Below are positions 2,649-36,983 of a DNA stretch of 64,000 nucleotides, one piece after another. Both the position numbers and the translations under genes were made by a program. This stretch comes from Heterodontus francisci (Eukaryota): assembly GCF_036365525.1 (NCBI RefSeq), contig NC_090395.1:71253232-71317231 (forward strand), in the 5' to 3' direction. Within the stretch, counting starts at the first letter, position 1. The number at the start of each line of letters is the position of its first letter. A model generated the notes under the pieces. The model did not search any database. It had not been told where the DNA came from and saw nothing but the letters and a program-made list of their open reading frames with translations.

Positions 2649-2663
2649 ATGTAACCGGGAGAT

Positions 2664-2896
2664 AAAAACAAGAAATGCTGGAACCACTCAGCAGGTCTGG
2701 CAGCATCTGTGGAAAGAGAAGCAGAGTTAACGTTTCGGGTCAGTGACCCTTCTTCGGAAGGGTCGAAGAAGGGTCACTGACCCGAAACGTTAACTCTGCT
2801 TCTTTTTCCACAGATGCTGCCAGACCTGCTGAGTGGTTCCAGCATTTCTTGTTTTTATTTCAGATTTCCAGCATCTGCAGTATTTTGCTTTTACTA
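2664..2896. mobile_element. Fold-back Penelope-terminus element with hammerhead motif (copy A)
   Basis: Two inverted ~95 bp arms matching the PLE 3' end at 12535-12669. 12-bp TSD TAACCGGGAGAT at 2652-2663 and 2897-2908. Confidence 0.9.
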
Positions 2897-3029
2897 TAAC
2901 CGGGAGATCTCGTTTTGATGAAGCCCGACCCAGGAAATGTGTTGAGGTTAGGATGGAGTCAGAGGGACAATTGGAATTCCTACCCTGCCAGAAGTTCACT
3001 TCACAGGGGAGGATTCTCAGCCTTATCTG

Positions 3030-3530
3030 TAACTGTTAGAGAAGTGGTATTAACCTTATATAGAACCTTGATTAGACCACACTTAAGGTACTATGTACAC
3101 TTCCAGTCTCCATGTTACAAAAAGGATATAAAGACATGAGGGAATATGCAAAAAAGGATCATATGAACTGAAAGGTTATACTTATTAGGAAAGGCTAAAC
3201 AAGCTAGGGCTATTTTCTCTTGTGGAGGAGGCCAAAACTAGGAGCCATAAATATAAGATAGTCACTAATATATCCAATGGGCAATTCAGCAGAAACTTGT
3301 TTTTTCTCTAAGAGTGGTTAGAACGTGGAACTGACTACTAAATTGGAGTAGTTCAGACGAATAGTGTAGATGCATTTAATGGGAAGCTAAATAAGCACAG
3401 GAGGGAGAAAGGAGTAGAAGGTTATGCTGATGGGATTAGATGAAGTCGGGTGTGAGGATGCTCAGATGGAACATAAACATGGATCAGTTGGGCTGAATGG
3501 CCTCTTTTAGTGCTGTAAATTCTATATAAT
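3030..3530 (+). mobile_element. Degraded CR1 LINE 3' fragment
   Basis: LYRTLIRPHLRYYVHFQSPCYKKDI peptide and a CR1-type tail GGGCTGAATGGCCT..TGCTGTAAATTCTAT. Confidence 0.75.
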
Positions 3531-3961
3531 TCTCTTTCAAATTACTTTACACTCTCCAGGAAAAGGGCTTCCCCAGGCTGTTTGTGTGAGTTCTAATAAA
3601 GGGTCACAATTTAAACATTAACCTGTCTTTTCTCATTAAGATATGGACCGACTCGCTGGGTATATTCTGCTTTCAGATTCCCAGCAGTCGGAGTTTTGTT
3701 TATAAATCTCGCATGAGAATCTGGACAGTTCCCCATTTGATGAATTAGTCAACCAGAGACTGAAATCCCCAAGGCTCTCTGATTGGATGCATTAAAACTG
3801 CACAAGCACCAAAAACTTAATCCAATTGCGTTCAACCTGAATATTTATTTTTTCAACTAACTGATTTACAGGTACCTCAGCAAGTTCATAACAGAGTGAT
3901 GGCATGCTCAGTCATCTGTAGGACACAGGGAAATGCATGTAAAAGCCAAAAGATATTTGAT

Positions 3962-4165
3962 AGGTCAGGCAGCATCTGTGGAGAGAGAAAGAAAGTTAAC
4001 GTTTCAGGTCAATGACTTTTTATCAGAAAGGTTCTGATGAAAGGTCATTGACCTGAAATGTTAGATCTCTTTCTCTCTCCACATGTGTTGCCTGACTTGC
4101 TGAGCATTTCCAGCATTTTCTACTTTTAGTTCAGATTCTCAGCATCTACAGTATTTTCCTTTTGT
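3962..4165. mobile_element. Older fold-back Penelope-terminus element (copy B)
   Basis: Inverted arms around ~4030 and CTGATGA-A-AGGTC-ATT-GACCT-GAAA at 4034-4058. The possible TSD is degenerate. Confidence 0.8.
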
Positions 4166-4849
4166 AAAGTATATTTGGTAATGTGAGAGAAATAGAACAG
4201 TCAGATTGTACAATAGCATATCAATCTGAAATGTAAAGATAGTCATTGCTAGATTTAAAATCTAGACTAAAGGGTTTAGTGGAGGAAGGCCCTTGTGAAT
4301 ATTTGGTCTAATCCTTTCATAATAGTGAATCTACCATTTGCCCTTTACATATTTCAAAGCCAGCCTTGAAGGCATGTGGACCTCATTTTATCGCCCATAT
4401 GATGGATAACAACTCTGACAAAACAGGACTCCGTCAGCACTGCACATTATGTGCTCAAGTCCTGCTCTCTAGTTCAAAGCCCAGAACCTTCTAACCCAGA
4501 GAAAGAGTACTCCCAGATTGCAGCCATACTTAGAAGGATCGTGGATTGGAGAATTATGATTGCAGCTCTATCTATGATCATGCTATCAAGCTGGCATCGA
4601 ATGAACTGTTGTGGGTAGGCTGGATTTGGCACGAGTTTTGTCTTCCATTGTTTGTAAGTAATCTTAGGCGCTGAATTTACTCTTGTATGTGTCTGGAACT
4701 ACTTGAGCGAGAATTTAGATCAAGCAATTTATACATCTAAGGCACTAATATTATGACAAAGGCCACAAGTCTAACCATGGGTGTTGCTTGGGGACCATTC
4801 TGAGGATTGCTGTAACTTAAATGGGACATTACATTGTGTATACATCACT

Positions 4850-5110
4850 GCAACAGGCCACTCGGCCTAGCTGCTTTGTGCTGGCTTTTATGTTCCACAC
4901 GAGCCTCCTCCCAACCTTCTTAATCCCACCCTGTCAGCATATCCTTCAATTCCTTTCTCCCTCATGTGCTTATCTAACTTCCTCTTATATGCATCTATGC
5001 TATTTGCCTCATATACTCATTTAGCAAGTTCCACATTCTCACCACTCTCTGGGTAAAGAAGTTTCTCCTGAATTCCCTATTGGATTTATTAGTGACTACC
5101 TTATACTTAT
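4850..5110 (-). mobile_element. CR1 3' end fragment
   Basis: Similar to 44255-44301 joined to 48181-48420 (ACCACTCTCTGGGTAAAG..CCTGAATTCCCTATTGGATTTATTAGTGACTA). Confidence 0.7.
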
Positions 5111-5264
5111 GATGATGTGGAATTGCTCGTGCAATTTCCCCAATGCTATTTCAATTCTGCCACTGTGGGGAGTAGCCAACTGAGAGCCAGAAACTTCTTC
5201 ATAAGAAGAAGCAGAAATAAACCCAGTGGGTAAATTCTGTAAACCTGCACTCTAAGGGAAAAGA

Positions 5265-7375
5265 CATGTTCAGTTCCATTCACAACCACTCAGATAATGA
5301 AGCAGTCTGTGCCCACATGCAGCAAGACCAAGACAAAATTCAGGCTTGGGCTGATAAGTGGCAGGTAAAATGTGTGCTACACATGTGCTCAGCAATATTT
5401 GTGCCACACATGTGCCAGGCAATGACCATCTCGAACAAGAGAAGCCCCTTGACAATCAATGCCGTTGCCATAATTGAATCCCCATCATCAACACCCTGAG
5501 AGTGACTAGAAACTTAACTGGACCAGCCAGGTAAATACTGCAGCTACAAAGACAGGTCAGAGGCTGTGTTTTCTGTGGCAAGTAACTCACCTGCTGACCC
5601 CCCCCCCCCACTCCCTCAACCAATGGTGGAGGTCCCACATGTCTGCTGCCCTTGTCCTTCTAAATGGTACAGGTTGTGGGTTTGGAAGGTGCTGTCGAAT
5701 GAGGCATGGTGAATTGCTGCAGTGCATCTTGTAGATGGCATACAGTGCTGCCACTGTGCGTCAGTGGTGGAGGGAGTGAATGTTTTAAGGTGATGGATGG
5801 GGTGCCAATCAAGTGGGTTGCTTTGTCCTAGATGGTGTTGAGTTTCTTGAGTGTTGATGGAGTTGCACCCATCCAGGCAACTGGAGAGTATTCCATCGCA
5901 CTCCTGACTTGTGCCTTGTAGATGGTGGACAGGCTTTAGGGAGTCAAGAGGTGGGTTACTCGCCACAGAATTCCCAGCCTCTGTCCTGCTCCTGTAGCCA
6001 CAGTATTTATGTGGCTGGTCCAGTTCAGTTTCTGGTCAATGGTGATCCCCACAGGATGTTGATAGTGAGGGTATTCAGTGATGGTAATGCCATTGAACAT
6101 CAAGGGGAGATGGTTAGATTCTCTTTTGTTTGAGATGGTCATTGCCAGACACTTGTGTTGTGTGAATGTTACTTGCTACTTATCAGCCCAAGCTTGAATG
6201 TTGTCCAGCTCTTGCTACATATGGACATGGACTGCTTCAGTATCTGAGGAGTTGGGAATGTACGATGTTCAGTACCAGTCATCAGTGAACATCCCCCCTT
6301 CTGACCTTATGATAGAGGGAAGATCATTGATGAAGCAGCTGAAGATGGTTGGGCCTAGGACACTCCCCTGAGGAACTCCTACAGCGATGTCCTGGGGTTG
6401 AGCTGATTGGCCTCCAACAACCACAACCATCTTCCTTTGTGCTAGGTATGATGCCAACCAGCAGTGAGTTTTCCCCTGATTCCCATTGACTCCAGTTTTG
6501 CTAGGGCTCCTTGATGCCACATTCAGTCAAATGCTGCCTTGATGTCAAGAGCAGTCACTCTCACCCCACCTCTGGAGTTCAGCTCTTCTGTCCATGTTTG
6601 GACCAAGGCTGTAATGAGGTCAGGAGCCAAGTGGCCCTAGCAGAACCCAAACTGAGCATCAGTGTGCAGGTTGTTGCAGCTTAAGTGGCACTTGATAGCA
6701 CTATCAATGACCCCTTCCATCACTTTGATGATTGAGGGTAGACTGATGGGGTGGTAATTGGCTGGATGCGATTTGTCCTGCTTTTTGTGGGCAGGACATA
6801 CCTAGGCAATTTTCCACATGTCAGATAGATACCAGTGCTGTGGCTGTACTGGAACAGCTTCTACAAGCCACAAGTCAGGCATATAATGGGATATTCTCCA
6901 TTTACCTGGATGGATGCAGCCTCAACAACATTTAGGAAGCTCGACAACTTCCAGGACAAAGCACCCCATTCACTACCTTAAAAATTCATTCACTTCACCA
7001 CTGGTGCACAGTGGCAGCAGTGTGTGCCATCTACAGGATGCACTGCAGAAAACGTCTAAGGCTTCTTCAACAGCACTTTCCAAACCCACAGCCTCTACCA
7101 CCTAGATGTTAAGGGCAGCAAGCTCATGGGAGCTCCACCACCAGCAAGTTCCCCTCCAAGTCACACACCATCCTGAATTAGTATTATATCAATGTTGCTT
7201 CATTGTCGTTGGGTCAAAATACTGGAATTCCCTACCTAACAGCACTGTGTGTGTATCTAAACAACATGGACTGCAGAAGTTGAAGAAGGTGGCTCACCAC
7301 TAGCTTCTCAACAGCAAATAACATTGGGCAATAAATGCTAGCCTTGCCGCCTACCTACATCCCATGAATGACTAA
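5265..7375. mobile_element. LINE family B: a + copy (5265-5600 and 6860-7375) interrupted by a - copy (~5623-6859)
   Basis: Peptides MQQDQDKIQAWADKWQV (+) and GVPQGSVLGPTIFSCFINDLPSIIRSEGGMFTDD (-). Family tail GGGCAATAAATGCT..CCCATGAATGA at ~7326-7371. Confidence 0.85.
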
Positions 7376-7433
7376 ACAAAAACACAGCAGCTCAGCCAGT
7401 ATCTGAAAACAATGAGAAAAGGACAGGCTAACC

Positions 7434-7751
7434 CAGGGTTGTCCAACCTTTTCGGGCAGAGGGCTGCATTACAATTTTTGCTTGGCCTGGTGGGCTGGTG
7501 AGCAAATTTCAAAAGATAAAGTCATTAAAAATTGATCTTACTAATAAAAACAACAAATATGCATTTTTGAAGAAGCTTCAAATGAGAAGACTAATTTATT
7601 GACAGACTTTCTCGTCATTATATTGAAAACTGATTTAGTGACATACCTGGCATTGTTTTTGCTTTAATAAGTAGTCAATCTCTGCCGGCACATTTGATGT
7701 AGCGAAGCAGAGCATTCCGGATAGATATCCATCTGTCAGGAGTGATCTTGA

Positions 7752-7783
<32 letters not shown>

Positions 7784-8583
7784 CCTGTCTCCCCCCTCTC
7801 TGTGTCATTCTCCTCTCTCAGTATTGTTCCCCCCCGCCCCGTGTTGTCCTCACTGTGTTCCCCTCTCTGTCATGCCCTCTCTGTCCCCCCCCCTCTATAT
7901 CCCCGACCTCTCTCTGTCCCCCCACCCCTCTCTCTTTTCCCCCCTCGCTCTGTTCCCCCCCCCTCACTTTGTTTCACCCTCTCTCTTTTTTCCCCTCGCT
8001 CTTTTAAAAAAAGTCAGAAAACCCTGAATCTCTGCAATGTTGGGAAGCGCATTCCTGCTTCAGCAGCTGTCAGCTGTGAAACTGACAGAGCGATGTTTTT
8101 AAAAAGACCGCTCTGCAAGACAAATACAAAGGGTGGCACAGTGGCGCAGTGGTTAGCATCACAGCCTCACAGCTCTAGTGACCTGGGTTCAATTCTGGGC
8201 ACTGCCTGTGTGGAGTTTGTAAGTTCTCCCTGTGACTGCGTGGGTTTCCACCAGGTGCTCTGGTTTCCTCCCACAGCCAAAGACTTGAAGGTTGATAGGT
8301 AAATTGCCACTAGTGGTGGTAGGAGAATGGTGGGGATGTGGTAGAGAATATGGGGTTAATGTAGGATGTGTATAAATGGGTGGTTGTTGGTCAGCACAGA
8401 CTTGGTGGGCTGAAGGGCCTGTTGCAGTGCTGTATCTCTAAATATAAATAAAAGAGAAATTTCTCATTTCCTGTCACAAAACCCTGGTGAGGATGAGGAA
8501 CAACCCTGGGTGCAGTTTACACTTGCGGGCCAGATGGGAATCTTTGGGGGCCTGGATTGTGGGCTGTATGTTGGACAACCCTG
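7434..8583. mobile_element. Non-autonomous hAT DNA transposon with nested SINE
   Basis: Perfect 14-bp TIRs CAGGGTTGTCCAAC / GTTGGACAACCCTG. 8-bp TSD GGCTAACC (7426-7433) / GGCTAACT (8584-8591). Internal CT-rich tract at 7752-8000. Confidence 0.9.
8131..8452 (+). mobile_element. HE1-type tRNA-derived V-SINE
   Basis: A box GTGGCGCAGTGG, B box GGGTTCAATTCT, V-domain TGTGTGGAGTTTG..GGTTTCCTCCCACAGCCAAAGAC and a CR1-type tail. Three copies in the window. Confidence 0.9.
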
Positions 8584-9134
8584 GGCTAACTTTTCCCATC
8601 CGATCAGAGCTGTTAAGATATAAGGCTTAGCAACAGCATTTACCCAATGGAGAAGACCCTTCTCTAGGTGTCCTAGTGGTACATTATGATAAGAACAGGA
8701 GGAGGCCATTCAGCCCCTTAAGCCTGTTCTTACATTCAATTAGGTCCTGACTGATCTGTATCTTAACTCTGTTTTTCTGCCTTGGTTCTGTAACCCTTAA
8801 TACAGGCAGGGTAGGACTCACAGCAAGTTTATTTTACACCAAACAGAGTCTAGTTAAGCAGCACATGACAGCAAACAATCTACAGAGTCTACTCAAAAAG
8901 TGTCTCTACAAATTTCAGTAAACAGAATTTGTGACTGAAACCCCAGCAATGTTTCCTGATCCATGCAGGACGATGCTTCCAGCAAAATGCAGTGAGTGGA
9001 GGAAGGTTGCATAGTACAAATTAGGTGCATAAAGTCAATCCCAGTCAGTTAGAGCAGTGCAGTCTCCAGGCGTGATTGACAGGTCCATTACTCAATCATC
9101 ACTATTCTGTTGGGAATAGTGGTGTCACTAAATA

Positions 9135-9231
9135 AAAACAAGAAATGCTGGAAATACTCAGCAGGTCTGGCAGCATCTGTGGAGAGCGAAGCAGAGTTAA
9201 CGTTTCAGGTCCGTGACCCTTCATCAGAACT
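9135..9231 (-). mobile_element. Single-arm Penelope-terminus element with canonical hammerhead core (copy C)
   Basis: Minus strand 9231-9195 reads AGTT-CTGATGA-A-GGGTC-ACG-GACCT-GAAACGTT-AACT. ACTAAATA is duplicated at 9127-9134 and 9229-9236. Confidence 0.85.
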
Positions 9232-10277
9232 AAATATGCAGCTCTGAAAATCTGCCCATGCTCAAGGTCTGTGCCCTGTTAAATAGACAACACATTGTAC
9301 ATCTTTGTGGAACTTGGGTTTTAAAGTGTCCTCTAATAAACCCTTACACTAGCTTTGAAAGAGGTGAATGTAGGATGACAGAATGCTATATTTGGCTGTG
9401 TCCTGTTATTTCTGCTTGTTGTGCAGTCCACAATATGCCACATCTGTGAGTTTTCTGTGAATCAAGAACAAACGAGACCCAAGGAGCTTAAGGGAACTCT
9501 GATTAGATTTTTAAAAGCAATTCTGTTCTGTAACAGCCAATCTGCTGCTAAAATATAACCTGCCATTGGAGTAGGGGTTAGAGTGAAGTATAGTTTGAAG
9601 CAAATAGAGGTGGAATTCAAAATGTTTCTTTCCCTCTTCCAGTGAAGGATATGCTTCAGTGGTCGGAGAGAATGAAAGAAACAATCGCATTGCAACATTT
9701 TCAACAAGGCTCATCAATGACAGATTGGACAAGACAAGAAGCCCTAGACCCCCAATCTTGACCCTTTTGCCCCTGCTTTCCACCCCCGCCCCCCCCCCCC
9801 CCCACCCCACCATGCCTAATGTGGATGGAGCTTGCGGGGGTGGGGGGTGTGGTTAAAATGACCAAGTCACCTAGCATTGTGTCACTCCCCATTTTAACAG
9901 GCGCATTCTAGCCAGCTCACAAGGCCTCATTGAAATTCAAAAGTCAGCGTTATGACCCTGATTATATTTTAACAATGGACAGTTTTGACACATTGCTTGA
10001 GCATTTTCTCAAGAAACTTGCTGCTCTTCTGCAAATAATTATCTCTGAAAGATATATGGCTAGATTTATCCTCCAGCTGTAGAGGGAGATGCTGAGAGAG
10101 GTCAGTAGAGGATTGTGCCAGAGCTTCCGCCCACTATCATGACCCCCATCACAACCTCAGTCACATCACCAACCTGCCTTGATGGTTTGTAGCTCCTTAA
10201 CCGTGCAGGCCCAAACATGGAGTCTCTGTCAATGAGGAAAATGTAGCAGAGTGATACTGCAGTGCCAGGAAGAGGAA

Positions 10278-10730: not shown

Positions 10731-10859
10731 GCCAACTTAAAAAGCAGACAAAAAAACCTCAAAGATTTTTGGGGGTCGATCTTTTTTGGGTGCAATTGGG
10801 AAATGTGATTGAGATTGTGCTGATTCGGTTACATTTCATGTTAAAACTGATTTACATGA

Positions 10860-11283: not shown

Positions 11284-11379
11284 AATCACAACTGTAAACT
11301 CTTTCATGCATCAGCACAATGGAACAGCAGAATAGAATGTAATCGTTTCTTGATTTTCTCTTTCCATTATTCCTTGATG

Positions 11380-12000: not shown

Positions 12001-12534
12001 ACTTTCTCCCTTTTTCAGCCGCATGCACCTGTATTTGATGCAAAAATAAAACTTCTGAAATCATCCGATGCTTCAGTTATTCCACAGATGGTGTTGGCTC
12101 CTTTAGGCACTGAATAATGAATCTACATGACGTTTCTATACAGCTTGGTGTATCACTAAATCCTTTCATCATATCTATTTCAAATCTCCCTTTCTCTGAA
12201 TCATAATCGTCTTTACCTGTCAGTTATATAAAGCTCTGATCAGACCCCGTCTGGAGTAACTGCATTCAGTTCTGGGCACTGTGCCTCAGGATGGATATTC
12301 TGGCCTTGGAGGGAGAACAGCACAGATTCATCACAATGATACCAGGGCTGAAAGGGTGATATTAGGAGGACAGTTTGCATAGACTAGGCTTGTATTCCCT
12401 CAAGTATAGAATATTAAGGAGTGATCACATTGAGGGGTTTTGATTAAAAGATTTGATAGGGTAGATAGAGAGAAACTCTGGCAAGGTAGGCTAGACGGGA
12501 ATGCATGAACACAATCACAGGTAATGTCCAGAAA

Positions 12535-14705
12535 TAAAAGCAAAATACTGCGGATGCTTGAAATCTGAAATAAAAACAAGAAATGCTGGAACCACTCAGC
12601 AGGTCTGGCAGCATCTGTGGAAAGAGAAGCAGAGTTAACGTTTCGGGTCAGTGACCCTTCATCGGAACTGACAAATATTAGAAAAGTCACAGGTTATAAG
12701 CAAGTGAGGTGGGGGTGGGGCAAGAGATAACAAAGGAGGTCTAGATTGGGCCAGGCCACATAGCTGACCAAAAGGTCACGGAGCAAAGGCAAGCAATATG
12801 TTAATGGTGTGTTGAAAGACAAAGCATTAGTACAGATTAGGTGTTAATACACTGAATATTGAACAGCAGCAAGTGCAAACCTGAAAAAAAAACAGTGGGT
12901 AAGCAAACTGAACAAACTAAGATGAAATGAACTAAATGCAAAAAAAAAGATTGTAAAAAATGTAAAAAAGAATGTAAAAAAAAAAGGAAGAAAAAAATAA
13001 CTAAAAATGAAAATAAAATGGGGGGCTGTCATGCTCTGAAATTATTGAACTCAATGTTCAGTCCGACAGGCTGTAGTGTGCCTAATCGGTAGATGAGATG
13101 CTGTTCCTCGAGCTTGCGTTGATGTTCACTGGAACACTGCAGCAATCCCAGGACAGAGATGTGAGCATGAGAGCAGAGGGAAGTGTTGAAATGGCAAGCA
13201 ACCTGAAGCTCAGGGTCCTGCTTGCGGACTGAGCGGAGATGTTCCGCAAAGCGGTCACCCAGTCTGCGCTTGGTCTCCCCAATGTAGAGGAGACCACATT
13301 GTGAGCAGCGAATACAGTATACTACATTGAAAGAAGTACAAGTAAATCGCTGCTTCACCTGAAAGGAGTGTTTGGGGCCTGGGATAGTGAGGAGAGAGGA
13401 GGTAAATGGGCAGGTATTACACCTCCTGCGATTGCAGGGGAAGGTGCCATGGGACGGGGACGAGGTGGTGGGGGTAATGGAGGAGTGGACCAGGGTGTCA
13501 CGGAGGGAACAATCCCTTCGGAATGCTGACAGGGGAAGGGAGGGGAAGATGCGACTAGTAGTGGCATCACGCTGGAGGTGGCGGAAATGGCGGAGGATGA
13601 TCCTTTGGATATGGAGGTTGGTGGGGTGAAAAGTGAGGACAAGGGGAACCCTGTCACGGTTCTGGGAGGGAGGGGAAGGGATGAGGGTAGAGGTGCGGGG
13701 AATGGGCCGGACACGGTTGAGGGCCCTGTCAACCACAGTGGGGGGAAATCCTCGGTTGAGGAAAAAGGAGGTCATATCAGAAGCACCGTCATGGAAGGTA
13801 GCATCATCAGAGCAGATGCGTCGGAGACGGACAAACTGGGAGAATGGAATGGAGTCCTTACAGGAGGTAGGGTGTGAAGAAGTGTAGTCGAGGTAGCTGT
13901 GGGAGTCGGTGGGCTTATAATGGATATTAGTAGACAACCTATCCCCAGAGATGGAGACAGAGAAGTCGAGGAAGGGAAGGGAAGTGTCAGAGATGGACCA
14001 TGTAAAGGTGAGAGAAGGGTGGAAATTGGAAGTAAAGTTGATAAAGTTTTCCAGTTCGGGGCGGGAGCAGGAAATGGCACCGATACAGTCATCGATGTAC
14101 CGGAAAAAGAGTTGGGGGAGGGGGCCTGAGTAGGACTGGAACAAAGAATGCTCGACATATCCCACAAAAAGACAGGCATAACTAGGACCCATGCGGGTAC
14201 CCATAGCAACACCTTTTACTTGAAGGAAGTGCGTGGAGTTGAAGGAGAAGTTGTTCAATGTGAGATCAAGTTCAGCCAGGCGGAGGAGGGTGGTGGTGGA
14301 TGGGGACTGGTTGGGCCTCTGTTCCAGGAAGAAGCGGAGAGCCCTCAACCCATCCTGGTGGGGATGGAGGTGTAGAGCGATTGGACATCCATAGTGAAGA
14401 GGAGGCGGTTGGGACCAGGAAACTGGAAATTGTCAAAATGACGTAGGGCGTCAGAAGAGTCATGGATGTAGGTGGGAAGAGACTGGACCAGCGGAGAAAA
14501 GATAGAGTCAAGATAGGAAGAAATAAGTTCAGTGGGGCAGGAGCAGGCTGACACAATGGGTCTGCCGGGTCAGTCCCGTTTGTGGATTTTGGGAAGGAGG
14601 TAGAAGCGGGCTGTCCGGGGTTGTGGGACTATGAGGTTGGAAGCTGTAGAGGGAAGATCTCCAGAGGAGATGAGGTCAGTGACAGTCCTTTGGACGGTCA
14701 TGCCA
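12535..14705 (-). mobile_element. Penelope-like element (Neptune-type), 5'-truncated: RT plus GIY-YIG endonuclease, with 3' terminus
   Basis: RT motifs FTMDVQSLYTSIP, GVAMGTRMGPSYACLF and RYIDD. Cys linker PCNRRRCNTCP and GIY-YIG VVYCIRCSQCGLLYIGETKRRLGDRFAEH..GLN. One frameshift near 14350, stop at 13029. 13-bp TSD TAATGTCCAGAAA at 12522-12534 and 14706-14718. Confidence 0.95.
12633..12669 (-). ncRNA. Minimal type I hammerhead-like motif in the PLE terminus (variant core CCGAUGA)
   Basis: AGTT-CCGATGA-A-GGGTC-ACT-GACCC-GAAACGTT-AACT. PLE termini are known to carry minimal hammerheads. Confidence 0.65.
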
Positions 14706-15800: not shown

Positions 15801-15899
15801 GCTGAACCACAGCTGATGTTGAGATGGAGGATGTTGCAGTCTTATTGAGAGCATTCCAATGTGTTCGTCGTCATCTTCAAACAAGCCACAAATGTCAAA

Positions 15900-16113
15900 A
15901 TAAAAGCAAAATACTGCAGATGCTGGAAATCTGAAATAAAAACAGAAAGTGCTGGAAATACTCAGCAGACCAGGCAGCATCTGTGGAGAGAAAAGCAGAG
16001 TTAACACTTCAGAATTCTGATGAAAGGTCACAGACCTGAAACGTTAACTCTGCTTCACTCTCCACAAATGCTGCCAGACCTGTTGAATATTTCCAGCATT
16101 TTCTGTTTTTATT
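15900..16113. mobile_element. Fold-back Penelope-terminus element (copy E)
   Basis: Inverted arms with canonical CTGATGA-A-AGGTC-ACA-GACCT-GAAACGTT-AACTC at 16017-16050. TSD CCAYAAATGTCAAA at 15886-15899 and 16114-16127. Confidence 0.85.
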
Positions 16114-16127
16114 CCATAAATGTCAAA

Positions 16128-16855: not shown

Positions 16856-16867
16856 TAGTATCAAGAG

Positions 16868-19697: not shown

Positions 19698-21699
19698 ATA
19701 ATAGTTTGTTCCCCCCTCCCCCGCCAAGGCTCCCTGTCCTCAGCGACCCCCTCCCCCAACCTTCCCCCGAGCAATTTACTGCAAACAGTGAAGCAGCTGC
19801 TTTAAATACAGGCTGCCCACAGTCTGAGATTCTGGTGACCGGTTTCATTAGTTTGTGAAAGCAGACAGTAGAGGGTGGTGGCAGTGGCTGCCTGGATTAC
19901 CTGTTGCACAGTCAATGCAGCACCTTGTCCAACTCATGTCCAAATCAATGGGTTGTCCTTGATATCATTCTCCATTCCCTCCTCGCCTATCAGTTCATTG
20001 GGCTGTAATATTATTTTCAGATATTTGCCAACAATCCCCACAGTGAGAAAAGTCACACAAAACGCACAAATCTCTCAGATTCAAAACACAAATAGTTCTT
20101 CATGTGTCTGAATAGATTTAACTACAAGCGATATTGAATTTATCCCTAAGCTCCCACTGACAGTGGATACAAATGATATTAATTTTAAAAATATATAAAA
20201 GAAGAAGATTTAGCGCAAATGTTGCCTAAAAGTACCTAGGCTCCGAAAGTTACTGGACCTTCTTATCTCTACGTTTGTATCCCGGAAACATTCCTCCCCA
20301 AGTAATTGAAATGAGTTTGGTTTTACACATGAGTGGCCCGGCCAACTTCCTTATCAACACTGATTTATCTTTCATGTGTGAAGAGGTAATTTAATGGAAA
20401 CAGTGAACATTTCCAGTTAGATACCGGGCTGGTCTCTTCCTTCCAAGCATTGCTTAGTTTCAAAAGGTGCAATTTGCAGCGAATAATTATTATCTATTAA
20501 CAATGTCTGTAAAATTTGCTCTCCCTTTTAACAGGACACAGTACATGACTTTCAATTGGTTACCAATCGCTTTTGTAGTGAATTAGTTGTTAATGAGTTT
20601 GGAAACCATGAAGAAGTTTTGAAAAATGAGAAGGTGTGGGAGAAATTTATCACAATGCAGTGATACAGCCGTGCTAATCCACCCCTGCTCAGAATGCCAT
20701 TTAGAAAAGCAAGGATTCGGCAAGAGCTCAATTGCAGTTTTTACGTGGAAACTGCGCCATCTGTCTATGTAAAAGAAATCGTTCACAACTCATTCCTCAC
20801 AATAAAAAGTTAATTAATTCAATCCAGTAACACATTACAGCCAAAAAATTAGCATTCTGTTGGAAAGGCTCCCGCAGGTCCTAAATATTGAGCACTTGAT
20901 CTTTATCTTGTGTTTACAATTTTCAAAAATAAAATTTTAAACACAGAAAGAAGTCTAAATACCTGGTTGTGGGGAGTCCGTCCCGTCTCTTCCATTCCCA
21001 AGACCTGGAGAATCTGCCTATTTCTAGTGCGTTTTGATTTTATCTCAGTTTTCCAACATTGTTTTCTGTATATATCTAGCAAGGTCGCTGTTATTTCAGT
21101 AGTAGCTATGCCCGTGTTTAATCGTTCTGTCTTGCCCAAGACAGTCTTTTTGTTGCTCATGTGGGACAAAACCAAAATGCTGCAGTTGCCGGAAATCTGA
21201 AATAATTATCTGGGACATTGTTCCCAGAATAAAACTGAGCCGGAGTGAGTTACCTGCTGCTGAATGGCAAAAGCCACTCTTCCCTGTGTGCCTGCTCTTT
21301 TTTACATCGACAACACAAGCACTAATAAACCCTCAAAAATCAATATAACAAATAACTCCAGGGAGAAAGTTGCGAGGCAAAAACCCAGGGAAACACTGAG
21401 GGAGAGTTGGAACTGGGTGACTTGCAATGGGTGTAAGGGGGTGGAATTCAGCAAACATTTGGGAATTCTAAGACAGACTGGTTTGGGAAGGGCTGCAGAG
21501 GACACCGCTGACATTACTGAAGAATGATGTAGACTTTAGATGCATTTATTCCGGAGTTTATCAGTGCCTAGACAAATGCTTTATAGATTTATAAGGAATG
21601 AGACACGTGCAAGTCATTTCTGTAACTGCAACGTGTCCAGAAAACAGATACATCTGTTGATTTTTTTTTATCCTGACGGTAAAACTATACATGAGTGGG

Positions 21700-23439: not shown

Positions 23440-24588
<1,149 letters not shown>

Positions 24589-25571
24589 TAGGTCCTATTT
24601 TTTCACCCTTTGTTGTGATTGATACATATCAGTTTTCCAAACGCTACCCTGTCTCCGTGTGAGACCATTGGCTCCAATGTTCAACATGTATGTTTACCCA
24701 AGTGGCGCCTGCCTCAATAATCAAGAAATTGTGCGGATTTTTACAAGGCACTAACGTTATTCAGCTTTCAAAATAATCTTTAATTAATAGATGATAAACG
24801 CGCCTTTTATTTAGTAACATGGGGCAAAGCGTTGAAAGTAGAAAGGATTAACTAAATATCGCCTTAGCTCCAGAATACAGGTATAACTTGGTTGATTTGA
24901 CGAACAATCTGGATATTTGTAATTACATTCTCAGAATTAGCACTGTTTAATCTCCTTTTCTAAGCAGTACCAGGCATTACCAATAGTTATTGCATCGCAC
25001 TGAAACAGAAAGGCAGGACCAGATATTAATCTTCGTCAGGCAGGGAATGAGAAAGTTTATTTCACAAGGAGACTGTGCAAACGAATGAGTGAAAAATGAC
25101 ACGTAGGCTGTTAGAACTTAAACGGTGCTTATGTCTCTCTTAGTTACTGGCCATTTTCCCTAGTTACTGCACGCTTCCACTATAAGGCAATGGGTTAAAA
25201 GCCATCCCTAGAGCATTTTATCTATTGTAACACCAACTCTTGTATTTCATTTAATCAAGAAGGAACATAGAAAAAGCACTTGTAATTTCTGCTGTTCATA
25301 AAACGGTCTGTATAGCGCAATAAGACGATAGATTTTCTTGCAATAAAGGGCTGACTTGCTTTGAGAAAAGATCAGGCTGTCTATATAATCTGACAGATGT
25401 TTCGACGATATACAATGTGACACACACAAATAAAAATGTTTTCTCAGAACTCTCGGGCTAATGACCTTGAGGCTTATTTGTTGGAGTGAGAAGACTTATG
25501 ACAACAGTAATAAAGTTTTTACAAGAGAACTTCGTGGCTGAAGTGCTACCTGGTGTTGAATGCTGATTACA

Positions 25572-26599: not shown

Positions 26600-28480
26600 A
26601 AGAAAGATAAGGCAGAAGCATTTGCAACAATCTTCAGCCAGAAGTGCCGAGTTGATGATCCATCTCGGCCTCCTCCTGAAGTCCCCAGCATTACAGATGC
26701 CAGACTTCAGCCAATTTGATTCACTCCACGTGATATCAAGAAACGACTGAAGGCACTGGATACTACAAAGGCTATGGGTCCTGACAATATTCCAGCAATA
26801 GTACTGAAGACCTGTGCTCCAGAACTTGCCGCACCCCTAGCCAAGCTGTTCCAGTATAGCTCCAACACTGGCATCTACCCGACAATGTGGAAAATTGCCC
26901 AGGTATGTCCTGTACACAGAAAGCAGGACAAGTCCAACCCGTCCAATTACCGCCCCATCAGTTTACTCTCAATCATCAGCAAAGTGATGGAAGGTGTCAT
27001 CAACAGTGCAATCAAACGGCACTTGCTTAGCAATAACCTGCTCAGTGATACCCAGTTTGATTTCCAACAGGACCACTCAGCACCTGACCTCATTACAGCC
27101 TTGGTTCAAAAATGGACAAAAGAGCTGAACTCAAGAGGTGAGGTGAGAGTGACTGCCCTTGACATCAAGGCAGCATTTGACCGAGTATGGCATCAAGAAG
27201 CCCTAGCAAAACTGAGGTCAATGGGAATCAAGCGGAAAAATCTCTGCTGGTTAGAGTCATACCTAGCGCAAAGGAAGATGGCTGTGGTTGGTGGAGGTCA
27301 ATCATCTGAGCTCCAGGACATCACAGCAGGAGTTCTTCAGGGTAATATCCATCTTCAGCTGCTTCATCAATGACCTTCCTTCAATCATAAGGTCAGAAGC
27401 GGGGATAAAAACAAAAAATGCTGGAAACACTCAGCAGGTCTGGCAGCATCTGTGGAAAGAGAAACGTTAACTCTGCTTCTCTTTCCACAGATGCTGCCAG
27501 ACCTGCTGAGTGGTTCCAGCATTTCTTGTTTTAATTTCAGAATTCCAGCATCCGCAGTATTTTGCTTTCATTATTATTACAGAAGTGGGGATGTTCGCTG
27601 ATGATTGCACAATGTTCAGCACCATTCCTGACTCCTCAAATACTGAAGCGGTCTGTATAGAAATGCAGCAAGACCTGGACAATATCCAGGCTTGGGCTGA
27701 TAAGTGGCAAGTAACATTTGCGCCACACAAGTGCCAGGCAATGACCATCTCCAACAAGAGAGAATCTAACCATCGCCCTTTGACATTCAATGGCATTACC
27801 ATCGCTGAATCCCCCACTATCAACATCCTAGGGGTTACCATTGACCAGAAACTGAACTGGAGTAGCCATATAAATACCGTGACTACAAGAGCAGGTCAGA
27901 GGCCAGGAATCCTGCAGCGAGTAACTCACTTCCTGACTCCTCAAAGCCTGTCCACCATCTACAAGGCACAAGTCAGGAGTGTGATGGAATACTCTCCACT
28001 TGCCTGGATGGGTGCAGCTCCAACAACACTCAAGAAGCTCGACACCATCCAGGACAAAGCAGCCCACTTGATTGGCACCCCATCCACAAACATTCACTCT
28101 CTCCACCACTGACGCACAGTGGCAGCAGTGTGTACCATCTACAAGATGCACTGCAGCAACGCACCAAGGCTCTTTAGACAGCACCTTCCAAACCCGTGAC
28201 CTCTACCACCTTGAAGGACAACGGCATCAGAAGCATGGGAACACCACCACCTCCAAGTCACACACCATCCTGACTTGGAACTATATCGCCATTCCTTCAC
28301 GGTCGCTGGGTCAAAATCCTGGAACTCCCTTCCTAACAGCACTGTGGGTGTACCTACCTCACATGGACTGTGGCGGTTCAAGAAGGCAGCTCACCACTAC
28401 CTTCTCAAGAGCAATTAGGGATGGGAAATAAATGCTGGCATAGCCAGTGATCCCCACTTCCCATGAATTAATAAAAAAAA
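26600..28480 (+). mobile_element. LINE family B, 5'-truncated RT region with poly-A end
   Basis: GPDNIP, NYRPISLLS, ALDIKAAFDRVWH and MFADD motifs; 3' end ..CCCATGAATTAATAAAAAAAA. Confidence 0.92.
27407..27579. mobile_element. Fold-back Penelope-terminus element (copy F) inserted in the LINE RT
   Basis: Inverted arms with most of the hammerhead core absent at the junction. TSD CAGAAGYGGGGAT at 27394-27406 and 27580-27592. Confidence 0.88.
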
Positions 28481-31413: not shown

Positions 31414-31770
31414 ATGACTTATGTGGAGAGACTGGAGAAGATGGGATTGTTCTTCCTGGAGCAGAGGTGGTTCAAGGGAGATTTAATAGAAGTGTTCAAA
31501 ATCATGAAGGGTTTCGAAGGAGGAAATAGGGAAAAACTATTTCTAAAGGCAGAAGGGTCAGTAACTCAAGGAGAGCCAAAGGGGCAGATGAGGATAATTT
31601 TTTATTTTAGAGATACAGCACTGAAACAGGCCTTTCGGCCCACTGAGTCTGTGCCGACCATCAACCACCCATTTATACTAATCCTATATTTCTACCACAT
31701 CCCCATCTGTCCCTGTATTCCCCTATCTATACTAGGGGCAATTTATAACAGCCAATTTACCTATATTCAT
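31414..31770. mobile_element. CR1 fragment (+) followed by HE1 SINE tail (-)
   Basis: YVERLEKMGLFFLEQRWFKGDLIEVFKI, then GAGATACAGCACTGAAACAGGCCTTTCGGCCCAC (reverse of the HE1 tail). Confidence 0.7.
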
Positions 31771-31858
31771 TTTTGACTGATTTTATGCTGGTTTCTATCA
31801 TTTCTGGGTATGACTGGGGAATGCCAGCAGTTGCTTGCCAAAGCAATGCAGAGGCTCT

Positions 31859-32076
31859 TGTAGTACAAGAGTCTGAAAGGGTTAATGTTTGAGACAGTGA
31901 GAGTAACCCCTCCCACTGTAGTGATGAGATGTAATAGTCACATGCTTTTTAGGCTTGAAAGAAGCTAGAAGCATCATGAGTGCACATAGTTATGTATATA
32001 AAATAAATGAGTTACTATTTAGCCACACAAAGACTCTGAGACATCTGTAAACAACACTCGAACTATGCTTACAACA
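31859..32076 (+). mobile_element. Small solo LTR
   Basis: TGTAGTA...TACAACA termini, AATAAA at ~32002, flanks GCTCT/GTTCT (5-bp TSD, one mismatch). Confidence 0.55.
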
Positions 32077-32569
32077 GTTCTGTCCTGGGGAAACTCAAGG
32101 CTGTGGGTTAGTCAATCAGGGAACTACATTTATGCATCTTTTTGGTGGGCTAGAACTTAACGACTAGAACCTACCTGTGTTTTTCCTTTGTCCAGTCCCA
32201 GAGCATTAATGGGAGGAATTACACCTCAAAAAAGACCCATGAAGATTGTCCTTTCTCCCCTTCCCCACTACATGCGAATGATGGCCAGAGAGGGACGTGG
32301 TTTGCTATATGGCCTCATTTTAACACCCTTTTTTCCCAGTTTTGCCAGTAGAAGATTAATGCCTCAATGGAAGATGAATGGAGAGCTGGCCAGAGGCACT
32401 GTAGACTAGAAGTCCACAATGATTCTAGAGCAAATTGTGGGTAAGGATGGTTAAAGTATAGATTTTCTGTCAATTTAACATTTTGTCGTGTATAAGCTTT
32501 TCAAAGTATTATAAAAAGACTTAAAGTTTTTTTAAAAAATCTTGTGGCCTGAGCTTTGGGAACAAGTGG

Positions 32570-33530
32570 AGCATAGGAAAAGGAGGAGGCCATTCAATCC
32601 CTCGAGCCTGTTCCGTCATTCAATTAGATCACGGCTGATCACTACCTCAACTTCATTTTCCCACCTTTGAACTATATCTCTTATTACCCTTACCCATCAA
32701 AAATGTATGAATGTCAACCTTGAAAGCTCCAATTAACCTCCAGCATCCACAGCCTTTTGAGGGAGAGCGTTCCACATTTCTGCCACATTTTGTGTGAGGA
32801 AGTGTTTTCTGATATCACTCCTGAACAGCCTGGTTCAAATTTTCAGAATATGCCCCCTTGTTCTAGATTCTCCCACCCGAGGAAATAGATACCCTCTTGA
32901 TCCTTTCATCATTTTAAATACTTCAGCATGATCACCCCTCAGTCTTCCTTAGGCCTTCCTCTTTCCCTCTGTTCTGAGAATGAAGACAGCACAGATTAGC
33001 AAGATGATTGCAAAGATAACAGACTGCACAGGAACCTCCAGCTCCTGTCCACTGCTACCCATGCCGTCTTGTCTGTGAATCCAGGGGTGAAAGGTTATCG
33101 GGGGTAGTTGGGAGTGTGGAGTGATCAGTTCAGCCATGAATTTATTGAATGGCAGAGCAGGCTAGAGGGGCTGAGTGGCCTAATCCTTCTCCTAATTCAT
33201 ATGTTCTTACTTTGACTATGTTAAATGGACCCTAAGTGATGTAAGGACATGCCTCCCTCATGGAATCAAAGAATAGTACTGCACAGAAGTAGGCCATTCA
33301 TCCTATTGAATCTGTGCCAGCTCTTTTGGACTGCAGTCCAATTAGTCCCACTCCCCATCTCTTTTCCCATAGTCCTACAATTGTCCCTCCTTCAAGTCTT
33401 TATCCAATTCCCTTTTCAAGGCCACTGTTGAATCTGTTTCTACCATCCTATCAGGCAGTGCATTCCAAATCCTAGCCATTTTCATCATTCGCCTCTGGTT
33501 CTTTTGCCAATCAGCTTAAAATTTTGTCCT
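32570..33530. mobile_element. Cluster of three CR1 tail fragments (-, +, -)
   Basis: GGAGGCCATTCA / AGGCCATTCA tails. 33083-33228 matches the tail at 19570-19695. Confidence 0.7.
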
Positions 33531-34280
33531 CTTATTATAATACAATAATTGAGTTGTATCAGCTGTCGGATACCTGTGGTCACTGTTGCTAAGGGAGACT
33601 CCCATTTGCCTACGGTAGCCTGATGACATGTTCCTCCAGATCTACCAAGGCTTCTGTTTGCAGCTCATTCTGCAGCTCCATCGGGCTGACAAATCACCCA
33701 CCTTGGACCAAGTCATTCTGCACAAATCCCATCAGTGACGAATGTAAAACTCACTGGAAACAAACCTGATGATCTTCCTGGTTATTTAAGACCTGAAGAG
33801 AATTGGGCTGATTGTGTGACGAGTTGCACTGACTACTGGCAGTGCAGTTTCAGAGCTATTCCAGCATTAAATCAACCTCGGCCACTTTTGTATTACAGAT
33901 TTGACTTGTGGGTAAACCTTGGCTTTTGGGAAATCTAATCTTTGTAAATCTTGGAGGGTTTGCACATTACGATACTTGGGATAATTTCAGGTGGTAGAAA
34001 TATGCAGCAGGTGTAGCAAAACTAGGGACTGAAATCACAAACATGGTGGGATTTCACATTCAGGAGATAGACTTACTGTGCTTCAGCACTGCACCAGTAT
34101 GATAGCACTTCTCAGCTTTAACTGAATTGGTACATGAGAACTCCAATGGCATTGCTGGTGAGAAGAAAGCTTCACTTTAAAACTTTCTTTTGTCAGTCAG
34201 TATTGGCAAGACAGTGAACTCCACTAGCAAAATGTAAACTGTGCAGAGGCACTGATGAGAAGTGAAATGAGTTCTTTTTA

Positions 34281-34515
34281 TGTTGTCTGATGCGACATAA
34301 ATGAGATGCATGGAGTTCAGTTGGTTGAAGATCTCAAGCAGGTTTATTTACAGCAAAACTATTATACACAGTACAGAGTTAACTATTTACAGAACTTGCC
34401 TCTTGGTGTTATAGTGGCAGGGTGAATCTGGCTTCCAGTAATCTGACCTGGTACTTAGATCATTAGCATACTAAGATCTTAAAGCGGCATCACTCTTAAA
34501 GGCAATCATACAGCA
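34281..34515 (-). mobile_element. Possible solo LTR
   Basis: TGTTGT...ACAGCA termini, minus-strand AATAAA at ~34343, and paired CTTTAAG motifs as in 2378-2648. No TSD seen. Confidence 0.4.
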
Positions 34516-35244
34516 AGAGGAACTTTGCAGCTGTGAGCAGATATGTATGCAGACATGTGCAGGCATACATGCTGACATGCATGTAGGCATGCGTACGTGT
34601 GACTATCGTTGCTTGGTCACAGCTTGTTGCAGGCATGTGCCAATTTTCATCTTTCACATTTCAGAAATAGTCTTCAGCTCATTGGGATGACATACTTGGG
34701 ACCACAGATACAATTCCCCACCAGTTGCTGCCATGTAAATTGGCATAATCAGAAAGTATAAGTTATTGTTTCATAGTAACTTTACAGCATTGCTGCTCTA
34801 CAAGCAGAGCTCTGTGTGCAGGTATACATATTGAGAATTTGAGTATGAGCTCTATGATTTCCTGGCTATTCATTTTAGTCGCAGCAACTGGTGGGGACTT
34901 GCATCTATAGTTCCACGTATGTCATCCCAGTGAGCTGAAGACTATTTCTGAAATGTGAAAGATGAAAATTTAGCCCTTTTGAATCACTCCATCTTAAAGG
35001 AACCTTGAAACTTTACGTAGGGCCAACATTTTGAATGCAAGATCCTTACCTTTGGCAATAAAGCCACTCATGGACTCAGTCCTGTCACAAACTCCTCCTG
35101 ACCTGAAGCTCAGTGCATGCATCACACTCTTTCAACTGTTCCTGCCTTTACGCCCCTCTTCCTCGTTCCACTCTACCTTTTCATGGCCGAGGCTTCATCC
35201 ATCCCAGCCCACTCTTTTACACATCGTATTCTTGTGATCTGGAT

Positions 35245-36497
35245 TTTTTTTTAAGTTTATTTGTTTCATGGGATATGGGCATCGCTGGCCAGGCCAGCAT
35301 TTATTGCCCATCCCTAATTGCTCTTGAGAAGGTGGTGGTGAGCTGCTTTCTTGAACCGCTGCAGTCCATCTGGTGTAGGTACACCCACAGTGCTGTTAGG
35401 AAGGGCATTCCAGAATTTTGACCCAGCAATATATTTCCAAGTCAGGATGGTGGGTGGCTTGGAGGGGAACTTGCAGGTGGTGCTGTTCCCACACATTCGC
35501 TGCCCTTGTCCTTCTAGGTGGTAGAGTTTGCAGGTTGGGATGATGCTGTCTAAGGAGCCTTGGCGAGTTGCTGCATTGCATCTTGTAGATAGTACACACT
35601 GCAGCCACTGTGCATCAGTGGTGGAGGGAGTGAATGTTGAAGGTGTTCGATGGGGTGCCAAACAAGCAAGCTGCTTTGACTTGGATGGTGTTGAGCTTCT
35701 TGCGTGTTGTTGGAACTGCACTTTTGAATTCTATATCCCTAGAAATAAATCCCAATTCTTTGTTAGCATATTTAATTACTTTGCTGACCTGCGATGCTGG
35801 TTTTAATGATGTGCTCACCTGTATCCCTTTGCTCTTCTTATTTTTCTTATTTCCGTTACTGGAATGCCAGTAGTGATGTCAGTGACTTCTAGATGCATGA
35901 GATAAATCAGAGGCTGGGAATTCTGCAGCAAATAATCCACCTCCTGACTCCCCAAATATTGTTCACCATCTACAAGTCACAAGTCACAGTGTGATGGAAT
36001 ACTCTCCACTTGCCTGGATTGGTGCAGCTCTAACAACACTCAAGAAGCTCAACACCATCCAGGACTCGTTTGACACCTATCCACCACCTTAAACATTCAC
36101 TCCCTCCACCACCAATGCACAGTGGCAGCAGTGTGTACCATCTACAAGATGCACTGCACCAACGCACCAAGGCTCCTTAGACAGCACCTTCCAAACCCGC
36201 GACCTCTACCACCTAGAAGGACAAAGGCAGCAAATGCATGGGAACACCACCACCTGCAAATTCCCCTCCAAGTCGCACATCAACCTGACTTGGAAATATA
36301 TCACCATTCCTTCACTGTTGCTCAGTCAAAAATCTGAAACTCCCTCCCGAACAGCACTGTGGGTGTACCTACACCAGATGTACTGCAGCAGTTCAAGAAG
36401 GCAGCTCACCACCACCTTCTCAAGATCAATTAGGGATGGGCAACAAATGCTGGCCTTGCCAGTGGCTCTTATAACCCATGAAAGAATTTTTAAAAAG
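35245..36497. mobile_element. Two divergent LINE family B 3' fragments (-, 35245-35720; +, 35905-36497)
   Basis: Both encode AAVCTIYKMxC..PRLLRQH. Family tails lie at the outer ends. Confidence 0.88.
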
Positions 36498-36733
36498 TAA
36501 AATTAAATGAACAGAATGCTTTCTAAGTTACTTCTAACATTATCTATCAGGATAATATTAGGTTCAAATATCTGATTAATTTACTAAAATACTTGTTATT
36601 GCTGACCTAATGGTATTGTAGAATCTCATAACATAATGACTTTAAAAAACATTAACACAGTGTATTAGTCAGATAATGCACATTTTGCCTCCTCAGTAAA
36701 GTAGAGCAAATCTCACAATAAAGGCTTTAAAGA

Positions 36734-36969
36734 AATAAAAGCAAAATACTGCGGATGCTGGAAATCTGAAACAAAAACAAGAAATGCTGGATTCACTCAG
36801 CAGGTCTGGCAGCATCTGTGGAAAGAGAAGCAGAGTTAACGTTTCGGGTCAGTGACCCTTCTTCGGAATGTTCCGAAGAAGGGTCACTGACCCGAAACGT
36901 TAACTCTGCTTCTCTTTCCACAGATGCTGCCAGACCTGCTGAGTGAATCCAGCATTTCTTGTTTTTGTT
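36734..36969. mobile_element. Fold-back Penelope-terminus element (copy G), perfect hairpin
   Basis: Arms 36770-36868 and 36871-36969 are reverse complements with a TG spacer. 15-bp TSD TAAAGGCTTTAAAGA at 36719-36733 and 36969-36983. Confidence 0.93.
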
Positions 36970-36983
36970 AAAGGCTTTAAAGA

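What the first reader, a model, noticed from the sequence alone, without database searches (positions are those of the whole stretch)
2652..36983. Dispersed family of tiny fold-back Penelope-terminus insertions, each with its own TSD
Seen: six 100-250 bp insertions (2664, 3962, 9135, 15900, 27407, 36734) consist only of the last ~135 bp of the PLE at 12535-14705. Five are two inverted arms, and five have clear 8-15 bp TSDs, the same range as the 13-bp TSD of the coding PLE. One arm usually reaches the true 3' end (..TATTTTGCTTTTA) while the other stops about 35-40 nt earlier at ..TTGTTTTTAT. Known: PLEs often carry inverted partial terminal repeats. Inference: these are a high-copy non-autonomous unit, or a stereotyped abortive product, mobilised by the Neptune-type RT/GIY-YIG protein. 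They resemble MITEs but would be made by retrotransposition.
Basis: partly seen in the sequence, partly recalled or inferred. Interest (0 to 1): 0.75.

Follow-up and report, generated by a model that had tools for sequence, protein, structure and literature searches.

The report
Penelope run-off fold-back insertions
These tiny hairpin insertions are real pieces of a Penelope-like jumping gene's end, in an arrangement already known for this class; they are likely dead-end products made afresh each time the element's reverse transcriptase runs off the start of its own RNA, not a mobile family of their own.

Summary
In detail: six short copies of the last 100-135 bp of a truncated Penelope-like element (PLE), five head-to-head. 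Four TSDs are clear (10-15 bp), one is marginal (8 bp), one is absent; one insertion has paralogous empty sites. The long/short arm offset is the published PLE 'tail'. Inner ends are sharp: 7 of 11 arms stop at 12667-12669, about 30 nt downstream of a TATA-like box, not at the predicted ribozyme cut. A second PLE family (51% protein identity, another animal) has the same fold-backs with 11-17 bp TSDs; 24 of 65 arms stop in the 10 nt before the ribozyme core, 29-38 nt downstream of a TATA box. Junctions differ between copies, which argues against a self-propagating unit. Best reading: two cDNAs start at the two internal initiation sites shown in vitro for a lizard PLE, run off the RNA's 5' end and are joined. 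The architecture is known, and the scan noted the same pattern twice on other DNA. The link to the transcription start is my addition; it is inferred, with no RNA 5'-end data.

The parts
12535..14705 (-). 5'-truncated EN+ Penelope-like element: broken RT-GIY-YIG ORF remnant, pLTR and tail; source-type sequence, not an intact donor
   Evidence: 467-aa open frame 13029-14432 with YIDD, C-x4-C-x2-C linker and GIY-YIG motif; a stop and a frameshift further 5'; best homologues in sharks and rays; 13-bp TSD 12522/14706
12633..12669 (-). Minimal type I hammerhead motif: helix I 4 bp, helix II 6 bp, palindromic helix III; predicted cut between 12637 and 12636
   Evidence: Pattern scan finds 7 copies in the window, all in this family; helix II 94% paired with one G-C/A-U change, covariation not above shuffles; activity not tested
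12667..12671 (-). Modal inner end of the arms; initiator-like TCAGTT, putative transcription start (also reads as a CAG splice acceptor)
   Evidence: 7 of 11 arms end at 12667-12669; loose ends at 12667 or 12663 in 3 of 4 runs; motif at 12671
12694..12698 (-). TATA-like box 29 nt upstream of the initiator A
   Evidence: Only TATAA in 12532-13028; promoter function inferred
12745..12749 (-). CCAAT box 80 nt upstream of the putative start
   Evidence: Only CCAAT in 12532-13028; function inferred
12532..12569 (-). Tail of about 35 nt between the two outer ends; both ends carry the motif TTTTATT
   Evidence: Motif at 12575 and 12539; loose-end modes 12532-12537 in 4 of 4 runs and 12569 in 2 of 4
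2652..2908 (.). e1: short arm + long arm, 12-bp TSD, junction with a short templated-looking insert
3962..4164 (.). e2: old fold-back, 67-bp arm + long arm, no TSD above chance
9127..9236 (-). e3: single short arm from the short outer end to 12669, marginal 8-bp TSD
15890..16127 (.). e4: long arm lacking its inner end + short arm, 10-bp TSD
27394..27592 (.). e5: fold-back joined at a 3-nt microhomology, 13-bp TSD, inside a LINE copy; 10 extra AT-rich repeat bases at the long end
   Evidence: three paralogous empty sites
36719..36983 (.). e6: near-perfect palindrome (99 nt, 100% complementary, 2-nt loop), 15-bp TSD; arms share three private variants

Best explanation
These are TSD-flanked insertions of the last 100-135 bp of a Penelope-like element, mostly as head-to-head pairs, and each is likely a dead-end run-off product made anew by the element's protein. 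Inferred steps: (1) the element's RNA starts about 30 nt downstream of the TATA-like box, at the 5' edge of the hammerhead. (2) The GIY-YIG domain nicks both strands 8-15 bp apart. (3) Each 3' end primes reverse transcription inside the RNA, one at each tail boundary, as shown in vitro for the anole Poseidon element. (4) If the promoter-proximal copy of these sites is used, only about 100 or 135 nt lie upstream, so both cDNAs run off the RNA 5' end, like retroviral strong-stop DNA. (5) The two cDNA ends are joined by end-joining, often at a short palindrome or microhomology. One primed strand gives a single arm (e3). Priming in the downstream pLTR gives ordinary 5'-truncated copies such as 12535-14705. 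Shown here: the anatomy, TSDs, end modes, differing junctions and motif spacing. Not shown: the RNA start, the enzymology in this family, the joining pathway.
For: Inner ends: 7 of 11 arms, from 5 of 6 insertions, in 3 nt; simulated chance 3.5e-5 or less, treating arms as independent. Summed contig depth falls 4.7- to 27-fold past 12671 and then stays roughly level for 800 bp in 4 of 4 runs from three organisms; not a copy number. Comparison family: stop rate 0.047 per nt in the 10 nt before the ribozyme core against 0.0007-0.003 further than 22 nt upstream; 15 of the 24 stops lie 29-32 nt downstream of a TATA box; a CCAAT box lies upstream; no AG acceptor there. Five more arms (4 loci) start 0-4 nt after the predicted ribozyme cut, as expected if arm ends mark RNA 5' ends. 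Variable TSDs and differing junctions in both families. e3 shows a short-site start without a fold-back. In vitro, the anole protein extends both strands from two internal sites, and shortening the RNA 5' end shortens the product (PMC11167929).
Against: No RNA 5'-end data: contigs cannot show a start. In the window's family the putative start, the helix I edge and a splice-acceptor-like AG coincide, and the mode (12667) fits the AG exactly and lies 2 nt short of the initiator A. In the comparison family 9 of 24 stops lie 1-3 nt before the core, 5 of them exactly at the helix I edge. Drosophila Penelope has a TATA-less internal promoter with a 45-nt first exon (PMC2377424), so the layout is not universal. 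Sister arms share private variants (e6: 0 of 98 differences), which snap-back copying explains equally well. A few joints have depth 67-830 where the lowest listed contig depths are 2-6, so some junctions are multi-copy. Two further families gave too few copies (5 and 9) to test. The in vitro work is on a Poseidon element, not this clade.
Confidence: 0.6

Rival explanations
1. Same two-ended or abortive insertion, but the inner end is set by the hammerhead: reverse transcription stops at the protein-bound or paired ribozyme core/helix I edge, not at the RNA 5' end.
For: All stops lie within 10 nt of the core; 5 comparison arms start exactly at helix I; the anole paper notes the core must unfold for RT to pass (supplement legend).
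Against: Arms include the whole ribozyme and stop just after it, not before it; 0 of 55 arms stop in +11..+27 and 4 of 55 in 0..+10; the main comparison pile lies 4-7 nt beyond helix I.
Confidence: 0.14
2. Snap-back: one cDNA (long arm) folds on itself at the inner end and copies itself outward, and the endonuclease resolves it about 35 nt short.
For: Palindromic centres (e6; C85, C491, C227); near-identical sister arms; self-priming and EN resolution were proposed in PMC3846280 and PMC8557442.
Against: Single short arms exist (e3; C5, C575, C622); e5 arms differ at a site that is polymorphic family-wide (12592); many centres are not palindromic; RT starts at both sites in vitro. It still needs a reason for the fixed inner end.
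Confidence: 0.12
3. A discrete non-autonomous unit (a retro-MITE) that is transcribed and re-mobilised whole by the PLE protein.
For: High abundance and sharp ends; some multi-copy joints, one (12588/12667) in two organisms; two identical comparison junctions (C85, C491); non-autonomous PLE derivatives exist (bioRxiv 10.64898/2026.07.22.740005).
Against: 5 of 5 window junctions differ; the identical pair is a perfect palindrome at a 4-nt self-complementary site, which can recur; the insertions carry no promoter motifs; the largest listed joints are about 0.1% or less of local depth. Perfect palindromes are probably invisible in contigs, which limits this test.
Confidence: 0.08
4. The template is spliced at the AG at 12668-12669, or longer inverted copies lost their centres later.
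For: The mode is exactly 12667, behind a pyrimidine tract; in D. virilis the intron ends at helix I (PMC4209133); e4 and e5 show centre loss at microhomologies.
Against: No shared exon sequence at the folds; loose-end letters at 12667 agree only 0.35 in the largest run; no AG at the comparison mode; random centre loss would not give a 3-nt mode.
Confidence: 0.06

Closest known systems
Canonical EN+ PLE insertion with inverted pLTR and tail (PMC3846280; PMC8557442; PMC2377424)
   Same: Head-to-head inverted copies, 30-40 bp tail on one end, variable TSD of about 8-15 bp, palindromes at the inverted junction.
   Different: The published examples I read carry an ORF or a full pLTR; here both arms are cut down to the ribozyme-to-tail segment, with a sharp inner end about 30 nt behind a TATA-like box.
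Poseidon from Anolis carolinensis, in vitro (PMC11167929)
   Same: Two internal RT start sites bounding the tail, both strands nicked and extended, hammerhead just upstream, product length set by the RNA 5' end.
   Different: Poseidon clade; the paper has 0 hits for 'transcription start' and 'TATA' and does not treat inverted genomic products.
Minimal hammerheads of PLEs (PMC4209133)
   Same: Type I core, long helix II, unpaired base before helix II, palindromic helix III; opposite-strand pairs 100-700 bp apart were noted in Schistosoma.
   Different: Here the pairs are nearly adjacent; many copies have C instead of U at core position 4; cleavage untested.
Non-LTR retrozymes (bioRxiv 10.64898/2026.07.22.740005)
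   Same: Non-coding, hammerhead-bearing, pLTR-derived; reported in one chondrichthyan.
   Different: Defined as head-to-tail tandem units; these are head-to-head or single arms with TSDs.
MITEs (definition recalled)
   Same: Short, non-coding, inverted-repeat structure, TSD, many copies.
   Different: TSD length varies, ends are asymmetric, junctions are not shared, the partner is an RT/GIY-YIG element.

Membership tests
EN+ PLE insertion product | Sequence from the terminus of an element coding RT plus C-terminal GIY-YIG | tested here: met
   (Pfam GIY-YIG hit 20 bits, below the 22.6 cut-off; motif present)
EN+ PLE insertion product | 30-40 bp tail on one end only | tested here: met
   4 of 5 fold-backs; end modes
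EN+ PLE insertion product | Head-to-head inverted copy within one variable-length TSD | tested here: met
   4 of 5 fold-backs
EN+ PLE insertion product | Hammerhead motif in the pLTR | tested here: met
Neptune clade | CX2-5CxxC linker motif before the GIY-YIG domain | tested here: met
   residue 333; shared with Nematis per PMC8557442
Neptune clade | RT phylogeny groups with reference Neptune elements | not tested
   no labelled reference elements were fetched
Minimal type I hammerhead | Core, helices I and II, palindromic helix III | tested here: met
   84% of cells paired against 40% or less when slid; position 4 is C in 5 of 9 copies
Minimal type I hammerhead | Covariation beyond chance | tested here: inconclusive
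   one two-sided change; 37-442 of 500 shuffles reach the observed values; no Rfam match
Minimal type I hammerhead | Self-cleavage | not testable with these tools
   needs an assay
MITE | Fixed-length TSD and symmetric terminal inverted repeats | tested here: not met
   TSD 8, 10, 12, 13, 15 bp; ends offset by about 35 nt
Non-LTR retrozyme | Two or more head-to-tail units with a hammerhead each | tested here: not met
   none in the window; one go-back joint of 109 bp elsewhere
Non-autonomous retroposon family | Copies descend from one unit, sharing junction and ends | tested here: not met
   5 of 5 and 13 of 14 junctions distinct; small samples, no genome-wide census
Non-autonomous retroposon family | Own transcript | not testable with these tools
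   only contigs were available

The most novel reading that the evidence does not exclude
The mini fold-backs are fossilised strong-stop intermediates of the PLE cycle: initiation near the RNA 5' end normally makes the second end (the inverted pLTR) of every PLE insertion from a sense transcript, and arm-end histograms read out each family's transcription start and in vivo ribozyme cut from DNA alone.
Probability: 0.3. Interest if true: 0.65.

Novelty: new member of a known kind. Interest (0 to 1): 0.35.

Why it matters
As an object it is ordinary for PLEs and should be annotated as PLE debris, not as a MITE. Its value is mechanistic. How inverted pLTRs form is open: PMC3846280 argued for self-priming on an antisense template. 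If arm ends mark RNA 5' ends, head-to-head structures come from sense RNA primed twice, the in vitro finding extends to a second clade in vivo, and thousands of copies give a DNA-only map of start sites and ribozyme cleavage, which the anole RNA-seq did not detect. Near-perfect 100-bp hairpins inside introns would also be a source of double-stranded RNA (inference).

Tried and rejected
No genome was held for the window, so no genome-wide BLAST or orthologous empty-site test was possible. Rfam: 0 matches. DNA pattern scans: 0 hits in viral contigs and metagenomes; one chance hit in a bacterial gene. Protein-based locus searches: nothing in viral contigs or first genome scan; one decayed fragment without terminus. 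Whole-terminus RNA folding is no better than shuffles, z -0.28. The bacterial promoter scan (69) does not apply. Two more hammerhead families had too few copies. The higher terminus-to-ORF depth ratio in the possibly-RNA run X5 (27 against 4.7 in X1, same sample) was not used as evidence: the run type is a guess and contig depth is a poor measure of expression. Ribozyme cleavage as the cause of the main fold point was rejected: the predicted cut is 30 nt downstream of it. Searches by sequence and by TATA/run-off words (74) of earlier findings gave nothing. Paper searches that found no description of mini fold-backs or of run-off from the start site; the library lacks most subscription papers and Repbase/Dfam, Lunse et al. 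2017 was not held, and supplementary figures of PMC11167929 could not be seen; its Fig. S2 may already show the 5' pile.
Full report
Observation. BLASTN of 12535-14705 against the window returns the six stated insertions and a weak seventh fragment; every hit is confined to the first 144 bases of the query. Five insertions are two inverted arms with their element 3' ends pointing outward; e3 (9135) is one arm. TSDs are 12 bp (e1), 10 (e4), 15 (e6), 13 with one mismatch (e5), 8 (e3) and 13 (PLE). In 2000 random site pairs 55 reached 8 bp, 4 reached 10 and 1 reached 12, so e3 is marginal and e2 (7 bp) has no TSD above chance. e5 sits in a LINE copy; three paralogous copies lack it and hold the 13-mer once. 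Long arms end at 12532-12536 (5 of 5) and short arms at 12566-12570 (5 of 6).

Context. The window holds a Shal-type potassium channel exon and many LINE fragments. The PLE remnant has YIDD, a C-x4-C-x2-C linker and a GIY-YIG motif; its 5' part has a stop and a frameshift, so it is not an intact donor. Five of the six best homologues are named from sharks and rays, 62-68% identical. The linker motif marks Neptune and Nematis (PMC8557442, passages); I made no tree.

What the terminus is. Read on the minus strand, 12669-12633 is a minimal type I hammerhead. A pattern scan finds seven such motifs in the window, all in this family. Helix II is 94% paired over 9 copies with one G-C/A-U change; covariation is not above shuffles, and Rfam has no match. 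Such motifs are standard in PLE pLTRs, and opposite-strand pairs were noted before (PMC4209133, parts 1-2 of 4 read). The 35-nt offset between arms is the known tail (PMC3846280, passages and Discussion; PMC8557442). Both outer ends carry TTTTATT.

Inner ends are not random. Seven of 11 arms, from 5 of 6 insertions, stop at 12667-12669; the others stop at 12664, 12644, 12644 and 12628. Simulated chance was 3.5e-5 or less, assuming independent arms, which overstates the case. None stops between 12670 and 14704. Contigs of four public runs from three organisms were laid on 12468-13467. Summed depth over 12570-12637 is 4.7, 11.5, 26.6 and 15.9 times that over the ORF, while upstream pLTR and ORF differ by less than twofold: a step, not a decay. 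Depth here is not a copy number, and diverged subfamilies can add to the step. Among the 24 loose ends shown (2100 not shown) are modes at 12532-12537 in all four runs, 12569 in two and 12667 or 12663 in three; the letters beyond 12667 are heterogeneous in the largest run (agreement 0.35). The predicted ribozyme cut (12637/12636) is 30 nt away, so cleavage does not set the main fold point. At the mode lies an initiator-like TCAGTT, with the only TATAA of the pLTR 29 nt upstream and the only CCAAT 80 nt upstream. The same bases also read as a splice acceptor.

Independent test. A search of prokaryotic genome records found animal-like PLE loci in one contaminated assembly, G001 (up to 53% protein identity). 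Its commonest family has its own minimal hammerhead with TATATAAA 39 nt upstream of the core and a CCAAT box further up. Two searches scored 40 of 69 and 40 of 100 candidates, so the sample is partial; 65 arms were mapped. Outer ends have two modes about 55 nt apart. Twenty-four of 65 inner ends lie in the 10 nt before the core (19 insertions), 15 of them 29-32 nt downstream of the TATA box. The stop rate there is 0.047 per nt against 0.0007-0.003 more than 22 nt upstream. There is no AG at this place. Five arms (4 loci) start 0-4 nt after the predicted ribozyme cut, with none in the 17 nt before it or the 8 nt after. Palindromic centres can shift these ends by a few bases. Twelve of 14 short fold-backs gave a TSD candidate of 11-17 bp, one of them in a microsatellite; mini arms also pair with long copies. 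Thirteen of 14 junctions are distinct. A TATA(A/T) start within a given 4-nt window has a chance of about 0.8-1.3%; the window's own match was spotted after the fact, the second family was the check. Two other families were too sparse to test.

Mechanism. The anole Poseidon protein nicks and extends both strands, starts reverse transcription at two internal sites that match the tail boundaries, and gives shorter products when the RNA 5' end is shortened (PMC11167929, parts 1-2 of 4 and passages read). If this family's RNA starts at the hammerhead's 5' edge, the first pair of initiation sites lies only about 100 and 135 nt downstream. Priming there from both nicks yields two complete run-off cDNAs; joining them gives a long arm, a short arm and one TSD. 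One primed strand gives e3. Templated-looking inserts and microhomologies at the centres fit end-joining (inference). Sister arms share variants (e6: 0 of 98 differences and three private changes), which fits one source transcript type, but also snap-back copying. Against the model: no RNA-end data; the mode is 2 nt short of the initiator A; five comparison arms start at the helix I edge; Drosophila Penelope has a TATA-less promoter and a 45-nt first exon (PMC2377424, parts 1-3 of 4 read).

Mobile unit? The window's five junctions all differ. A few joints are multi-copy (depth 67-830), one occurs in two organisms, and one is a 109-bp go-back that may be a retrozyme-like tandem (bioRxiv 10.64898/2026.07.22.740005, parts 1-3 of 5 read). 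These are about 0.1% or less of local depth, but 155 joints were not shown and perfect palindromes probably collapse in contigs. A mobile subfamily is not excluded (0.08).

Novelty. The architecture, tail and ribozyme are published. Two earlier notes of this scan report the same pattern on other DNA and judged it ordinary; I had formed my reading before seeing them. The match of inner ends to a predicted transcription start in two distant families, and the minor pile at the ribozyme cut, were not in the papers I searched (PMC6765202 and PMC8969392 seen as passages only). Repbase, Dfam and supplementary figures were not visible. Verdict: real, a new member of a known kind, with a testable mechanistic addition; interest 0.35.

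Noticed in passing
window 34642-34740 and 34872-34970: Unrelated inverted repeat, 99 nt, 89% complementary, 131-nt spacer, no hammerhead or obvious TSD; downstream of the potassium channel exon, probably intronic.
   Followed up: no
window 23440-24591: First coding exon of a Shal/Kv4 (KCND-type) channel gene; e5 and e6 lie downstream of it, probably in the intron.
   Followed up: no
window 3591-3697, 21001-21059, 21167-21205: Decayed fragments of the same terminus; the two near 21 kb face tail-to-tail.
   Followed up: partly
window 27570-27579: Ten extra bases of a short AT-rich repeat between e5's long end and the TSD, resembling repeated slippage at the start of reverse transcription.
   Followed up: no
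window 12532-12590: The tail looks like a degenerate tandem copy of the sequence before it; both initiation points end in the same U-rich motif, and the comparison family has TTAT at both ends.
   Followed up: partly
joints 12667-12559 and 12663-12535: Multi-copy joints from the inner end back to the tail, possibly head-to-tail arrays of the terminus (retrozyme-like).
   Followed up: no
   Followed up: partly
window 12664 and L005:1992: Core position 4 is C instead of U in the young copies of both families; effect on cleavage unknown.
   Followed up: no
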